Assembly (NCBI GenBank): GCA_964291285.2
Contig: OZ219785.1
Location: forward strand, 288,001 to 352,000
Origin: Alphaproteobacteria bacterium
GTDB lineage: Bacteria; Pseudomonadota; Alphaproteobacteria; Bin95
Length of the DNA stretch: 64,000 nt
Reading direction: 5' to 3'
The notes under the pieces were generated by a model, which was given only the letters and a program-made list of their open reading frames with translations, was not told the origin of the DNA and did not search any database. A program made the translations under genes and the position numbers. Below, piece by piece: positions 29,268 through 32,651 of the stretch; position 1 is the stretch's first letter; the number at the start of each line of letters is the position of its first letter.

Positions 29268-29482
29268 AGGCAGATGACCTGACGGTGCTGAGCGCGTGCG
29301 GCATGGGCCGCCTTGTGGCGCTACTCGGGATTTCGAAGGGCGAAACCGGCCTCGGGCCGGGCAGGGAAGGTGCGCGCGCCGGCCGCGGGAGAACCGACCG
29401 AGTTGTCGTAATTCCGGGGTGGAATCCACGCGCCCGACCCGTTCGAAATAGGCCGCCGGACGGTGCGGCCGGGGGAGGAGTC

Positions 29483-29887
29483 ATGACGGACTTGCTGGCG
29501 GGACGGAGCCAGGGGCTGGCGTTCGGCGAGGACCTGCGCCGCCGGGCGGTTGCGGCGGTGCTGGACGAGGGGATGACCAGGGCGGCCGCGGGCCGGCGGT
29601 TCGGGGTCCATCCCCAGAATATCTCCCGCTGGGTGAAGCGCTATCGGGAGCGCGGCCATCTGCGGCCCGATCCGAGGGGCGGCGACTCCCGGTCCTGGCG
29701 GATCGAGGCGGAGCGGGACCGGATCCACCGCCTTCTGGAGAGGCGGCCGGGCATCAGCATCCGCGCGCTTCGCGACGCGCTGGCAGCGGAGGGCGCCGAG
29801 TTCGGGTTGGGCGCGGTGCAGCGCTTCCTGAAGCGCCACGGCCTGGAGCGCGCCCGCCGCCCGGCCGGGGCCGGCCGGCGCAGGTGA
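29483..29887 (+). CDS. IS630-like transposase N-terminal HTH protein lacking the DDE domain
   Basis: EDLRRRAVAAV..AAGRRFGV..ISRWVKRYRERG..PRGGDSRS..LRDALAAEG..VQRFLKRHGL; GGAGG SD. Confidence 0.75.
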   Translation: MTDLLAGRSQGLAFGEDLRRRAVAAVLDEGMTRAAAGRRFGVHPQNISRWVKRYRERGHLRPDPRGGDSRSWRIEAERDRIHRLLERRPGISIRALRDALAAEGAEFGLGAVQRFLKRHGLERARRPAGAGRRR

Positions 29888-29954: not shown

Positions 29955-30031
29955 CGGGGCGTAGCGCAGCCTGGCAGCGCGTCTGCTTTGGGAGCAGAAG
30001 GTCGCGAGTTCGAATCTCGCCGCCCCGACCA
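29955..30031 (+). tRNA. tRNA-Pro(UGG)
   Basis: Canonical cloverleaf CGGGGCG...CGCCCCG-ACCA; anticodon arm TCTGC-TTTGGGA-GCAGA; TTCGAAT T-loop. Confidence 0.97.
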
Positions 30032-30112
30032 CCGTTCGGACCGCGCGCCCTGCGCCAGCCCGGTCGAGCGCCCGGATTGCGTTACGGGCCCGGGAACGGG
30101 AGGACGGACGGC

Positions 30113-30310
30113 ATGAGCGGCGAAACGGCGGTCATCATCCTTGCGGTCATCGGCGCCGGGGCTGCTCTCGGCCTGCTGATCGTTCCGGGCCAACGCGAAT
30201 TGCGGCGCGACATTGCGAACCTGTGCGAACGAATGGCGCGCGTCGAGGGTGCGGTCGAGGCCCTGCGCAACGCCATTGCGGGGCAGCGGAGGGGAACCGC
30301 CCGCGAATAA
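30113..30310 (+). CDS. Small single-TM coiled-coil protein
   Basis: Hydrophobic N-terminus then RELRRDIANLCERMARVEGAVEAL; GGAGG SD. Confidence 0.65.
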   Translation: MSGETAVIILAVIGAGAALGLLIVPGQRELRRDIANLCERMARVEGAVEALRNAIAGQRRGTARE

Positions 30311-30418
30311 ATCCCGTCCGGCGGGGCCGTTCGTCCTCGTCGCGCGGTTACCGGCGCACGCAACGCATTTTCGGCACTGCCTGGGGCCGGCGTCGGCCTC
30401 CCGACTAGGCGTCCGCAC

Positions 30419-30578
30419 TTACGCCTGCTCGCCGCTCCGCTTGGTGAAGCCCTCGAACAAGCCCTCCAGACGGGCCATGCGCTTGCGCAAGTCGGACATA
30501 TCGCGATGCAGGTTCCAGAGAAAGCCCGCACCACGTTGCGGCGATCCGGTCTAATCCCGTCCGCTCGATCCGTTTCAT
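30419..30578 (-). pseudogene. Degraded paralog of the small coiled-coil protein
   Basis: FLWNLHRDMSDLRKRMARLEGLFEGFTKRSGEQA* resembles 30113-30310; 5' part out of frame. Confidence 0.5.
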
Positions 30579-30847
30579 GCCTTCCACATACCGACAGCGC
30601 TGACCCACCTGTGCCGGGTCGCCCGCTTCCGTAATGGGACTCCGTAGCAGCCAGCGCCGTTGAAGCCTTTGGCAATAGCGGGTGACCCAACCAAGCGGGA
30701 CCCGTGGCGCTGTTTGCAGGGCTATCATCCCAGCAAATTATTTTTCACCAAACGATTGACAAGAGTACATATCCATGATAATTGCGGAGACGGCGGTGGT
30801 GCGGAGAGGCTTGACTCCATTCTGTCTTGATGCAAAATGCGTCTGAA

Positions 30848-30922
30848 GGCGGGGGAGCGTGACGGCCACGCCGGGAACTAGAAAATCCACGTAAGCCGGT
30901 TCGACTCCGGTCCCCGCCTCCA
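30848..30922 (+). tRNA. Non-canonical tRNA: Cys-like body (GGC/GCC, U73), loop CTAGAAA (nominal anticodon AGA)
   Basis: Perfect acceptor GGCGGGG/CCCCGCC-TCCA, D-stem GCGT/ACGC, T-arm GCCGG-TTCGACT-CCGGT; weak 3-bp anticodon stem. Confidence 0.7.
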
Positions 30923-30933
30923 GACATGCCGAA

Positions 30934-31008
30934 CAGGGGGTAGTCTAGCTGGTAAGGCACCCGCTTTAGGAGCGGGAGACTTGGGTTCGAGACCCAACCC
31001 CCTGACCG
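30934..31008 (+). tRNA. Non-canonical tRNA: Pro-like body (C1-G72, A73) with UAG (Leu) anticodon
   Basis: CAGGGGG/CCCCCTG acceptor; CCCGC-TTTAGGA-GCGGG anticodon arm; TTGGG-TTCGAGA-CCCAA T-arm; ends ACCG, not ACCA. Confidence 0.75.
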
Positions 31009-31097
31009 GCGTTTTAATTAGCGTTGACATATTACCTCTTGTCAAGCGCCCTAGTTCTTGATATTTCGTTCAACTGGTGGCTATAGGGAACGCTACC

Positions 31098-31208
31098 ATG
31101 CTGGATAAGGCCAAGCTCGACCTGTTGGCCAAGGTCATGCAGCGCGTGGTTCAGGAACGGCTAACCCCCAATGCTCCCGCCAAGGAACCGCCGCAACCGG
31201 CGAAGTGA
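31098..31208 (+). CDS. Putative 36-aa peptide MLDKAKLDLLAKVMQRVVQERLTPNAPAKEPPQPAK
   Basis: AGGGA SD-like sequence, ATG..TGA, directly downstream of the tRNA pair; translated by hand. Confidence 0.35.
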   Translation: MLDKAKLDLLAKVMQRVVQERLTPNAPAKEPPQPAK

Positions 31209-31230
31209 TCAAGAGACGCAGCAGAGCTTT

Positions 31231-31338
31231 TGGTGCAGGCGGTGGGATTTGAACCCACGGGGCACGGGGTTGCTTGGAAGCTTGCCGCGCCCGCCGGCGT
31301 CTAAGGCCGGTGCAATAAGCCAACTCTGTTACACCTCC
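31231..31338 (-). tRNA. Non-canonical tRNA(UAG) with very long (~35 nt) variable arm
   Basis: GGAGGTG/CGCCTGC-ACCA (one G.G mismatch), CCGGC-CTTAGAC-GCCGG, V-arm GGGCGCGG..CCGTGCCC, GTGGG-TTCAAAT-CCCAC. Confidence 0.75.
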
Positions 31339-31401
31339 AATAGCGTAGCGCCCCGGTTGATATCATATGTCAGCCGGGGCGCAGCTATAACCTAGCATCG
31401 G

Positions 31402-31533
31402 CTAGTCAAGATAAATCTTGAATGCGCATTTGCCATGATCGCGGGCATAGACGCGCGTGCCGTCTTTCTTGGTGAACCAAGGCCGCAGAATGTATCGGCG
31501 ACCATCGGTATCAACGTAGATCTGATCGGACAT
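31402..31533 (-). CDS. 43-aa basic/aromatic peptide MSDQIYVDTDGRRYILRPWFTKKDGTRVYARDHGKCAFKIYLD
   Basis: Strong GGAGGA SD just upstream of the ATG; protein-like composition; too short for the ORF track. Confidence 0.65.
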   Translation of the reverse strand: MSDQIYVDTDGRRYILRPWFTKKDGTRVYARDHGKCAFKIYLD

Positions 31534-31709
31534 TATGTCCTCCACTGGAAAACCTGTGGAGAGACACTTGCGCTAAACAAACTGGTGCGGGTAAGGTTGC
31601 CTTGCTCGCGCCTGATCAGCGCAAGTGCTCTCTGTGGGAGAGTGGGGTCGAGGTCGTCCAAGGGCCTCGGCCCCTTTCCGTTTGACACCTCCTGTCAACG
31701 ACAGGCGTC

Positions 31710-31738
31710 AGGCTAGATCACAGGCAGTGAGGCGTCAA
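31710..31738 (-). promoter_or_regulatory. Sigma-70 promoter for the leader-peptide-tRNA unit
   Basis: TTGACG-N17-TAGCCT. Confidence 0.55.
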
Positions 31739-31798
31739 CATACGAGATGCATGGGAAAGTTTGACAAACTACACAACATCTTGGAAACTGTGGATAAC

Positions 31799-32651
31799 TT
31801 AGTCCACCACCAACCCGGTACACATCACCCGCTTGCCAATTAGCCCAACTACCACGTCGCGCATTTGAGCAATGGTGTCCTCATCTCGCACGTTATGGCG
31901 GCCGGCGAACTCGGTAACGTAGCGATGCAGGTACTTCTGGCTAATCTTGTGGAAAGTGCCCTTATGCGCCCGTTTAAGCATGGCCCAAAATGACTCAATG
32001 CCGTTGGTATAGGTCTGGCCCCGGACGTATTCGCCAACGCTATGATTGACGGCCTCGTGCCTATGCGGCATGCCCTTGTAGGCAACGGCCTTGTCCGTAT
32101 AAACGGTTGCATAGGGCTCAACATACTCGCCGCAAAAAAGCCAGCCAGCGTTGGCGCCACGGTATTTGGGCACGGGCTGCACCTAGACACGCCACGTTGC
32201 CCAATTGCGCGCCCCAACAACAGCAGTTTTGCCAACCATGCCACTTTCTGCGTAACACCAAGGTCGCGATGCAGCTTCATGCTGCTAACGCCCTCGAGGC
32301 TGGTGACGTAGAGGTAAACGGTGAAAGCCCATTTGCGCAGCGGCAGGTTGGTCTCCTCCATGGCGGTGCCCGTGCGGACGCTAAAGTAGTTCTTGCAGTC
32401 CCGAGACCTGTAGGGGGCGGGTTTACGGTTCCTCACCTCATAAACCACATTTGCCGCAGAAGCGACTGCCGAGCCAATGGACCTCCTCAAACCATGCTTC
32501 CGCCGATGCCTCATCGGGAAACATGGCGGCCAACTCCATAAGCGAAATGCCTTTGCGGTGAGCCTTGCCTGGGGCTTTGGTCATGGCGGTTTCTCCCTTT
32601 CAAACAATGCAGGGTGAAACCGGGCCGGAGGCAATCAGGATTATAATTCCC
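31799..32651 (-). mobile_element. IS1595-family (ISXO2-like domain) transposase pseudogene with terminal sequence GGGAATTAT
   Basis: Fragments in several frames: MTKAPGKAHRKGISLMEL (start 32584), FSVRTGTAMEETNLPLRKW..GVSSMKLHRDLGVTQK, YTD..HEAVNHSVGEYVRG..TNGIESFWAMLKR. Confidence 0.88.

What the first reader, a model, noticed from the sequence alone, without database searches (positions are those of the whole stretch)
30934..31008. tRNA with proline identity elements but a leucine (UAG) anticodon
Seen: C1-G72 pair, A73, short variable loop, and loop TTTAGGA, one base from the Pro loop TTTGGGA of the host tRNA 1 kb upstream; stems intact; 3' end ACCG. Known: bacterial ProRS uses G72, A73 and G35/G36; LeuRS normally needs a long variable arm. 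Inference: it may insert Pro at CUA codons, remain uncharged, or be a one-step pseudogene.
Basis: partly seen in the sequence, partly recalled or inferred. Interest (0 to 1): 0.7.

Follow-up and report, generated by a model that had tools for sequence, protein, structure and literature searches.

The report
Imported proline-type tRNA with leucine anticodon
A well-formed tRNA gene built like a proline tRNA but carrying a leucine (UAG) anticodon sits in a small, decaying piece of foreign DNA; it is most likely a tolerated leftover of an imported tRNA cluster and not a dedicated mistranslation device.

Summary
Window 30934-31008 is a high-scoring tRNA (Rfam 61.6 bits) with C1:G72, A73, G15:C48, G36, G37, a 4-nt variable loop, anticodon UAG and a 3' end of CCG. 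It differs from 12 of 12 compared proline tRNAs only at U11 and A35 (plus G76). It is not a copy of the host tRNA-Pro 1 kb upstream. Its nearest relative is a tRNA-Pro(UGG) in a mobile tRNA array.

It lies in a 2.6-kb, low-GC, IS-littered insertion (30039-32648). That insertion is missing at this site in all four congeners checked. Two defective tRNA-like genes flank it: one Cys-derived, and one Ser-like with a second UAG anticodon.

A35 stands in contigs of both runs that cover the site (one study). I found no relative with A35 in the relatives, viral, genome or metagenome collections searched. The genome has one ProRS, no ProRSx, and a normal tRNA-Leu(UAG). CUA is its second-rarest codon.

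Best reading (0.55): an imported proline tRNA with a G35A change, tolerated because it is poorly charged and its codon is rare. If it is expressed, it would put some proline at CUA. A selected mistranslation role remains possible (about 0.2). Interest 0.4.

The parts
30934..31008 (+). tRNA 'B': proline-type body (C1:G72, A73, G15:C48, G36, G37), anticodon UAG (30967-30969), 4-nt variable loop, 3' CCG instead of CCA
30848..30922 (+). tRNA-like 'A': Cys-derived (U73, encoded CCA; its 3' half is 86-96% identical to chromosomal tRNA-Cys genes of the family). It has a long D stem and a weak 3-bp anticodon stem with an enlarged loop ACUAGAAAA. It lies 11 nt upstream of B
   Evidence: (tRNA-Sec model 30.1 bits, below the gathering score of 47)
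31231..31338 (-). tRNA 'C': class II, Ser(UGA)-like body with A73 and encoded CCA. Its anticodon is also UAG (31303-31301). It has a 33-nt variable arm and mismatches at 2:71 and 10:25
   Evidence: 38.4 bits; lowest of 48 matches
30811..30838 (+). Promoter-like site TTGACT-16-CAAAAT ending about 9 nt before A. Run X3 has T at 30833, which gives TAAAAT
   Evidence: consensus match only
30039..32648 (.). 2,610-bp insertion between the 3' flank of host tRNA-Pro(UGG) and the groEL terminator. GC is 55-64% against 67-73% around it. No integrase gene and no repeat of the tRNA-Pro 3' end were found
31799..32584 (-). Broken IS1595-family transposase gene, in pieces in different frames
   Evidence: NF033547, E 1e-19, 71.3 bits against a cut-off of 75
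29955..30031 (+). Host tRNA-Pro(UGG), conserved across the genus. It marks the insertion hot spot
31402..31533 (-). Orphan 43-aa ORF with a GGAGGA ribosome-binding site, directly upstream of C on the same strand
   Evidence: (only itself found)

Best explanation
B is a genuine, structurally intact tRNA gene of tRNA-Pro(UGG) descent. It arrived by horizontal transfer as part of a small tRNA cluster: a Cys-type gene followed by a Pro-type gene, as in mobile tRNA arrays, plus a class II tRNA. The cluster sits in a 2.6-kb insertion beside the host tRNA-Pro gene.

A single G-to-A change at position 35 turned the anticodon UGG into UAG. The insertion is decaying: it holds a broken IS1595 transposase gene, both neighbouring tRNA-like genes are defective, and B has lost its encoded CCA.

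B has no dedicated synthetase. I read it as a tolerated relic, not a device. If it is transcribed and repaired to CCA, the housekeeping ProRS would charge it at reduced efficiency, because G72, A73, G36, G37 and G15:C48 are kept and only G35 is lost. It would then put a little proline at CUA codons. The host can bear this because CUA is its second-rarest codon and a normal tRNA-Leu(UAG) competes for it.

Shown: the structure, the proline-type body, the foreign origin, the insertion, the absence of a second ProRS, and the rarity of CUA. Inferred: the direction of the change (G35 to A), the weak charging, and the lack of selection.
For: **Proline-type body**
- B differs from 12 of 12 Pro tRNAs only at U11 and A35, plus G76.
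- C1:G72 plus A73 is found in 17 of 17 Pro tRNAs against 4 of 158 others.
- A 29-nt D-arm/anticodon-arm pattern with N at position 35 hit 3 viral and 5 genome contigs, all 8 tRNA-Pro(tgg).

**Foreign origin**
- The best outside match is the tRNA-Pro(tgg) of the Mycolicibacterium alvei plasmid tRNA array: 79% over 66 nt, and 56 of 75 identities against 49 of 75 for the host Pro.
- Cys-Pro adjacency recurs in the 28-tRNA array of congener G007. The order Cys-Trp-Pro occurs in two mycobacterial arrays.
- The stretch 30039-32648 is missing at this site in all 4 congeners checked. In 3 of them tRNA-Pro directly abuts the groEL side; the fourth has a different insert there.
- GC falls to 55% in the insertion.

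**Signs of decay**
- A broken IS1595 gene lies in the insertion.
- A and C are structurally defective.
- B is the only well-scoring tRNA in the genome without an encoded CCA.

**No system around it**
- The genome has one ProRS, no second or truncated ProRS, and none in the window.

**No conservation of A35**
- No B-like sequence in 60 relatives, 36 family genomes or 400 genomes of the class.
- An A35-specific pattern gave 0 viral hits and 7 metagenome loci, none of them a tRNA.

**Tolerability**
- CUA is 0.62 per 1000 codons, the second rarest.
- A canonical tRNA-Leu(UAG) is present.

**Charging**
- E. coli ProRS relies on G35, G36, A73 and G72, yet it charges Pro-type tRNAs that carry foreign anticodons, at lower efficiency (PMC10404621, Results passages read).
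Against: - B is remarkably clean for a relic. All 21 stem pairs and the conserved tertiary nucleotides are intact, and one of its only two departures from the Pro invariants is exactly the middle anticodon base.
- A second gene in the same insertion (C) also carries UAG, and A has UAG inside its loop. Independent decay does not predict this.
- A promoter-like site sits just upstream of A-B.
- B is kept unchanged in a second sample (X3) that differs by other letters nearby.
- A missing CCA is common in array and phage tRNAs, and a CCA-adding-type enzyme gene is present, so CCG is not a strong sign of death.
- No expression or charging data exist either way.
Confidence: 0.55

Rival explanations
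1. B is a selected missense tRNA. It is expressed, charged with proline by the housekeeping ProRS, and deliberately puts proline at CUA (perhaps also CUG or CUU) leucine codons, as the tRNA-ProX genes of Streptomyces do for Ala, Thr and Asn codons. It may act under stress, or against foreign low-GC genes that use CUA more often.
For: - The cloverleaf is intact and five of six proline determinants are kept.
- A promoter-like site lies upstream.
- A second UAG tRNA sits in the same insertion.
- In E. coli, housekeeping ProRS was enough for mistranslation by tRNA-ProT and tRNA-ProN, and these tRNAs were mostly aminoacylated in vivo (PMC10404621).
- The target codon is very rare in the host, which keeps self-damage low.
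Against: - No relative anywhere keeps A35.
- There is no ProRSx or truncated ProRS.
- The features that define tRNA-ProX are absent: U33 and U34 instead of A33 and A34, G15:C48 instead of A15:A48, and A21 instead of G21.
- The setting is a decaying insertion with defective neighbours and a broken IS.
Confidence: 0.2
2. B is charged with leucine. It would be a short-arm tRNA-Leu(UAG) that came with the foreign DNA to help read CUA, like the short-variable-arm tRNAs with Leu anticodons seen in tRNA arrays and phages.
For: - It has A73 and A14.
- Bacterial LeuRS does not need the anticodon or the long arm (PMC9976931).
- Short-arm tRNAs with Leu anticodons, some with the same loop TTTAGGA, occur in arrays and phage contigs.
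- CUA is rare in the host.
Against: - Nearly all of those short-arm Leu-anticodon tRNAs have G1:C72 (one, on phage contig L013, has C1:G72). Where I read the D arm it is the Leu type, with a 3-bp stem and a long loop starting A14 A15.
- B has C1:G72, a 4-bp D stem, an 8-nt D loop and G15:C48, and it has no A20a.
- A15-U48 and A20a are essential for E. coli LeuRS.
- The host already has a normal tRNA-Leu(UAG).
Confidence: 0.1
3. B and its neighbours are tRNA-shaped RNAs with a role outside translation. Examples are decoys for an anticodon nuclease that attacks tRNA-Leu(UAG), regulatory RNAs, or recombination targets.
For: - Three tRNA-like genes of different ancestry all have UAG in the anticodon loop.
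- Irregular tRNAs near toxin-antitoxin genes and transposons have been proposed to be non-translational (PMC5389517, passages read).
- tRNA arrays are discussed as anti-defence cargo (PMC12803027, abstract in the search listing only).
Against: - No nuclease, toxin, integrase or recombinase gene was found in the insertion.
- The unit is single-copy in the genome.
- Only this species carries it.
Confidence: 0.07
4. A35 is an assembly or sequencing error, and the gene is an ordinary extra tRNA-Pro(UGG).
For: Every distant relative compared has G35: 12 of 12 and 8 of 8.
Against: Contigs of both runs that cover 30968 carry A. One of them comes from a sample that differs at nearby positions.
Confidence: 0.01

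Closest known systems
tRNA-ProX family (tRNA-ProA, -ProT, -ProN) with ProRSx of Streptomyces and Kitasatospora (Schuntermann et al. 2023, PMC10404621; outline and Results sections read)
   Same: Both are bacterial tRNAs with the proline marks C1:G72 and A73 and a non-proline anticodon, annotated by their anticodon. Housekeeping ProRS can charge such tRNAs.
   Different: B has U33, U34, G15:C48 and A21 instead of A33, A34, A15:A48 and G21. No proSx or truncated proSx lies nearby or anywhere in the genome. The anticodon is for leucine. The host looks like an alphaproteobacterium (two-piece tmRNA; that this form marks the group is recalled). B has no conserved relatives.
Allo-tRNAs and polycistrons of irregular tRNAs (Mukai et al. 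2017, PMC5389517; passages read)
   Same: Both are clusters of tRNAs whose body and anticodon disagree. They include CUA-reading and UAA-reading species, lie near transposon remains, and mix active genes with pseudogenes.
   Different: B has a standard 7/5 acceptor/T arrangement, a short variable loop and a proline identity, not a serine identity. Allo-tRNAs have 8/4 or 9/3 arrangements, a long variable arm and a long D stem.
Mobile tRNA arrays (Mycobacterium tRNA array units, PMC5966550, abstract only; long arrays of Anabaena, PMC8421152, abstract and passages)
   Same: B's nearest relative is an array tRNA-Pro. The Cys-then-Pro gene order matches arrays. Arrays are horizontally spread and contain pseudogenes (3 of 26 in Anabaena).
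   Different: Here only three genes remain, two of them defective, and the Pro member has changed its anticodon.
Single-base anticodon variants that change decoding, such as the human tRNA-Ser-AGA G35A variant (PMC12993449, abstract in the search listing only) and anticodon-switch evolution of tRNA genes (recalled, not read)
   Same: One transition at position 35 re-aims an otherwise normal tRNA.
   Different: SerRS ignores the anticodon, so that variant is fully charged. ProRS reads G35, so B should be charged less well.

Membership tests
Bacterial tRNA-Pro | C1:G72 first pair and A73 discriminator | tested here: met
   Read from the sequence. The combination is found in 17 of 17 Pro tRNAs and in 4 of 158 other tRNAs.
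Bacterial tRNA-Pro | G15:C48 Levitt pair, G36 and G37 | tested here: met
   Read from the sequence. The list of determinants comes from PMC9976931.
Bacterial tRNA-Pro | G35 (NGG anticodon) | tested here: not met
   Position 30968 is A, whereas 12 of 12 compared Pro tRNAs have G.
Bacterial tRNA-Pro | Charged with proline by ProRS | not testable with these tools
   This needs an aminoacylation assay.
tRNA-ProX (Streptomyces type) | A33, A34, A15:A48 and G21 | tested here: not met
   B has U33, U34, G15:C48 and A21. The features are as listed in PMC10404621.
tRNA-ProX (Streptomyces type) | Encoded next to proSx or a truncated proSx | tested here: not met
   No aaRS domain was found among the window ORFs I scanned around B (29.3-44.1 kb). 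The genome has a single ProRS, and its three HGTP_anticodon hits are ProRS and two other open frames, none of them a second or truncated ProRS.
Bacterial tRNA-Leu | A73 | tested here: met
   A at 31005.
Bacterial tRNA-Leu | A15-U48, G18G19 placement with A20a, and a Leu-type D arm | tested here: not met
   B has G15:C48 and an 8-nt D loop without A20a. The criteria are from PMC9976931. The host tRNA-Leu(UAG) has the Leu-type arm.
Bacterial tRNA-Leu | Long variable arm (class II) | tested here: not met
   The variable loop is 4 nt. The long arm is typical of tRNA-Leu but is not crucial for E. coli LeuRS.
Short-arm Leu-anticodon tRNAs of arrays and phages | G1:C72 with a Leu-type D arm (3-bp stem, A14 A15) and a short variable loop | tested here: not met
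   B shares only the short variable loop, A73 and a similar anticodon loop.
Allo-tRNA | 8/4 or 9/3 acceptor/T arrangement, long variable arm, long D stem with a tetraloop | tested here: not met
   B is 7/5 with a 4-bp D stem and a 4-nt variable loop. The features are from PMC5389517.

The most novel reading that the evidence does not exclude
The three neighbouring genes form a codon-targeted mistranslation module. They are tRNAs with proline-type, cysteine-type and serine/leucine-type bodies that all present UAG. On demand they would mis-read CUA, the host's second-rarest codon, and so damage mainly foreign, lower-GC genes (phage or plasmid) while sparing the host's own proteome.
Probability: 0.06. 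Interest if true: 0.85.

Novelty: new variant of a known kind. Interest (0 to 1): 0.4.

Why it matters
Natural bacterial tRNAs whose body says one amino acid and whose anticodon says another are few. In the papers I read, the proline-type cases are reported only from Streptomyces and Kitasatospora, mostly next to a full or truncated special synthetase gene. This would be a proline-type tRNA aimed at a leucine codon in a proteobacterium, with only the housekeeping ProRS available.

If it is active, it shows how a single point change in imported DNA can create a missense tRNA, and how codon rarity shields the host. If it is inactive, it is a clean snapshot of the first step in the decay, or the re-aiming, of an imported tRNA. 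Either way it is a warning for annotation: the gene would be labelled tRNA-Leu from its anticodon alone.

Tried and rejected
- **Expression.** The look-up of sequencing runs listed no RNA holder, so nothing can be said about expression.
- **Run X2.** It has no cover for 30665-30741 or for 30882-31049, which includes B. Its contigs stop there in letters unlike the window. The two loose-end motifs I tested occur at 32 and 29 places in G000, so they are ends of multi-copy IS-like repeats. No contig joins across the gap, so I draw no conclusion on whether that sample lacks B.
- **Integrated element with att repeats.** I found no copy of the tRNA-Pro 3' end (32-mer, up to 3 mismatches) and no convincing direct repeat. 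I found no integrase gene.
- **Inverted repeat around A-B.** The 20-nt repeat (30753-30772 / 31029-31048, 80% complementary) could mark a small mobile unit, but the unit is single-copy in the genome. I left this open.
- **Phage collection.** There was only a 44-nt weak hit on C's T arm.
- **Relaxed A35 motif in viral contigs.** Of the 120 loci only 2 held a tRNA over the motif, and both are G1 short-arm Leu(UAG) types.
- **Metagenome scan.** It returned 7 loci, none a tRNA. The pattern was strict, so diverged relatives could be missed.
- **Class-wide search.** The best matches are weak (E of 0.004 or worse). The three 55-nt matches, including the best, fall on tRNA-Gln(UUG), which shares the D arm. 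B's U1/A72/G73-free acceptor stem and its G37 argue against Gln ancestry.
- **The 43-aa ORF upstream of C.** No family was found, and no relatives other than itself.
- **Earlier notes of this scan.** Nothing was recorded on this place or on these sequences.
- **Supplements.** Supplementary files of the papers were not opened. The tRNA-ProX sequence lists (Fig. S1, Table S1 of PMC10404621) and the allo-tRNA tables could hold a UAG member that I could not see.
- **Claim of "not in print".** It rests only on searches and on the papers read.

Full report
**1. The observation**

The window holds two ARAGORN tRNAs: tRNA-Pro(tgg) at 29955-30031 and a "tRNA-Leu(tag)" at 30934-31007. Rfam's tRNA model scores the second, called B here, at 61.6 bits (E 8e-12). 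The host Pro scores 68.1. Across the whole genome B ranks 36th of 48 tRNA-model matches and lies within the 49-77 bit range of the 46 ordinary tRNAs.

- C1-G72 and A73.
- A short variable loop (4 nt).
- Loop TTTAGGA against TTTGGGA in the host Pro.
- All stems paired, with U11-G24 as the only wobble pair.
- A 3' end of ACCG.

Contigs of the two public runs that cover position 30968 show A there. One may be the source of the assembly. The other comes from a sample that differs at 30349 and 30833. Both belong to one study.

**2. What kind of tRNA it is**

Several lines point to a proline-type body.
- Among 176 tRNAs from this genome and from the loci I fetched, C1:G72 plus A73 is found in 17 of 17 Pro tRNAs and in 4 of 158 others besides B. 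The sample is biased, because part of it was gathered with a Pro-derived pattern.
- A 29-base pattern spanning B's D arm and anticodon arm, with position 35 left open, hit 3 viral and 5 genome contigs. All 8 are tRNA-Pro(tgg).
- Aligned with 12 Pro tRNAs (three from the host, one from a congener's array, two mycobacterial, three viral, three from metagenome-assembled genomes), B departs from columns invariant in all 12 only at U11 and A35, plus the G after CC.

B therefore keeps G72, A73, G36, G37 and G15:C48. These are listed as proline determinants for E. coli in the review PMC9976931 (passages). It lacks only G35.

B is not a copy of the host Pro gene: the two share 49 of 75 identities. Its best match anywhere is the tRNA-Pro(tgg) of the 28-gene tRNA array on a Mycolicibacterium alvei plasmid (79% over 66 nt; 56 of 75 identities).

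**3. Could it be a leucine tRNA?**

According to the same review, E. coli LeuRS depends on A73 and on hinge elements (A15-U48, G18G19, A20a). It does not depend on the anticodon or the long arm.

tRNA arrays and phage contigs do carry tRNAs with Leu anticodons and short variable loops, some with the same loop TTTAGGA. Nearly all of those have G1:C72, and where I read the D arm it is the Leu type (3-bp stem, long loop starting A14 A15). B has C1:G72, a 4-bp D stem, an 8-nt loop and G15:C48. B meets only A73 of the Leu set.

**4. The surroundings**

B lies in a stretch of low GC: 54.6% in 31000-31999 against 67-73% around it.

In three of four congeners I fetched (G008, G010, G015), the tRNA-Pro gene is followed directly by the groEL terminator. 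The homology stops at window 30038 and resumes at 32649. The fourth congener (G016) has a different insert of about 2.7 kb at the same spot. So 30039-32648 is a 2,610-bp insertion at a hot spot.

The insertion holds:
- A broken IS1595-family transposase gene, similar to other copies in the genome.
- Small orphan ORFs.
- Two more tRNA-like genes.

Gene A (30848-30922, 11 nt upstream of B) has U73 and CCA. Its 3' half is 86-96% identical to tRNA-Cys genes of the family. Its anticodon stem is reduced to three pairs around the loop ACUAGAAAA.

Gene C (31338-31231, minus strand) is a class II tRNA with a Ser(UGA)-like body, A73, a 33-nt variable arm, two stem mismatches and, again, a UAG anticodon. 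It is the lowest-scoring tRNA match in the genome.

The order Cys then Pro is found in the 28-tRNA array of congener G007. The order Cys-Trp-Pro is found in the two mycobacterial arrays. This fits descent of A-B from such an array.

I found no integrase, no att repeat and no synthetase in the insertion.

**5. Is anything like it conserved?**

- No B-like sequence was found in 60 relatives, in the 36 other genomes of the family or in 400 genomes sampled from the class. The best weak hits there are tRNA-Gln genes that share the D arm.
- A pattern demanding A35 in the Pro-type anticodon arm found nothing in viral contigs and 7 metagenome loci, none a tRNA.
Both are G1 short-arm Leu types.
- The genome has a single ProRS of the short alphaproteobacterial form and no second or truncated copy.
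- It has all three normal Pro tRNAs and a normal class II tRNA-Leu(UAG).

**6. How it most likely works**

Every ordinary tRNA gene of this genome encodes CCA. B has CCG. A CCA-adding-type nucleotidyltransferase gene is present, and array or phage Pro tRNAs often lack CCA. Maturation is therefore possible, but it takes an extra step.

ProRS of E. coli reads G35, G36, A73 and G72. It nevertheless charges Pro-type tRNAs with foreign anticodons at lower efficiency, enough for mistranslation in vivo (PMC10404621). So if B is made, the likeliest cargo is proline, at a reduced level.

CUA is used 0.62 times per 1000 codons in 2,674 long high-GC3 ORFs. It is the second-rarest sense codon and accounts for 0.64% of leucine codons. 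This makes such a tRNA cheap to carry.

I therefore read B as an imported tRNA-Pro(UGG) with a G35A transition, carried in a decaying insertion and tolerated but not selected (confidence 0.55).

**7. What speaks against that**

- B is very clean. One of its only two departures from the Pro invariants is the middle anticodon base.
- Gene C carries the same anticodon, and A has UAG in its loop.
- A promoter-like site (TTGACT-16-CAAAAT, 9 of 12) ends 9 nt before A.

These points keep a selected missense role alive (0.2). With them goes the bolder idea of a CUA-targeted module that hits foreign low-GC genes (0.06). Leucine charging (0.1) and a role outside translation (0.07) are less likely. A sequencing error is nearly excluded.

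**8. Comparison with the known**

B works like a member of the tRNA-ProX family might work, but it is not one. It fails the tests for A33, A34, A15:A48 and G21, and it has no proSx neighbour.

B is not an allo-tRNA, since its acceptor/T arrangement is 7/5 and its variable loop is short. The cluster as a whole does recall the "polycistrons of irregular tRNAs" near transposon remains described with the allo-tRNAs (PMC5389517).

Earlier notes of this scan list other mis-wired tRNAs on mobile DNA in other genomes. I did not test those notes and use them only as context.

I found no printed report of a proline-type tRNA with a leucine anticodon in the searches I made. Supplements were not available.

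**9. Verdict**

B is a new variant of a known kind (a tRNA whose identity and anticodon disagree), present in a single species and without evidence of function. Interest is 0.4.

Noticed in passing
window 30848-30922 (+): Cys-derived tRNA-like gene with U73 and CCA, a 5-bp D stem and an enlarged 9-nt anticodon loop ACUAGAAAA. ARAGORN does not call it. Its best Rfam hit is tRNA-Sec at 30.1 bits, below the threshold.
   Followed up: partly
window 31231-31338 (-): Class II tRNA with a Ser(UGA)-like body, A73, a UAG anticodon and an unusually long 33-nt variable arm. ARAGORN misses it. It lies directly downstream of an orphan 43-aa ORF on the same strand.
   Followed up: partly
L066 4835-4923 (-) (G015:C1, same genus): An intact 89-nt class II tRNA with anticodon UUA (it would read the UAA stop codon) and A73. 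Its acceptor stem and T arm resemble those of gene C. It is an extra gene beside that genome's normal tRNA-Ser(UGA), and it was found in no other genome of the family (0 of 36).
   Followed up: partly
L061 3895-10697 (G007:C3, same genus): A 28-gene tRNA array in a congener. It includes 77-nt tRNAs with Leu anticodons (tag, caa) that lack the long variable arm.
   Followed up: no
L010 2543-2617; L017 2018-2092; L016 7062-7137 and 7422-7496; L013 2547-2622; L129 7573-7649; L161 369-443: tRNAs with Leu anticodons, A73 and short variable loops recur in tRNA arrays and phage contigs. The D arms I read are of the Leu type. The one on L013 has C1:G72. I found no description of this class in the papers I searched.
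   Followed up: partly
G000 genome-wide (for example C1:94984-95002 and C1:95081-95101): Two repeat-end motifs occur at 32 and 29 places in the genome. They abut different points of this insertion in the contigs of runs X2 and X3. The species is rich in insertion sequences, and this locus differs between samples.
   Followed up: partly
window 30113-30310 (+) and 30419-30499 (-): A small membrane-protein gene and a fragment of a second copy that share the motif RMAR(L/V)EG. The 74-bp core (30437-30510) is 82-90% identical to sequences in 8 of the 16 congeners. In one of them it lies within a 54-aa ORF next to an SHMT (glyA)-like ORF.
   Followed up: partly
window 30833: Run X3 has T instead of C here. 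This turns the promoter-like second hexamer CAAAAT upstream of A-B into TAAAAT.
   Followed up: no
window 29285-29887 (+): An ORF with transposase-type helix-turn-helix domains lies just upstream of the host tRNA-Pro. Both flanks of that tRNA gene therefore carry mobile-element remains.
   Followed up: no
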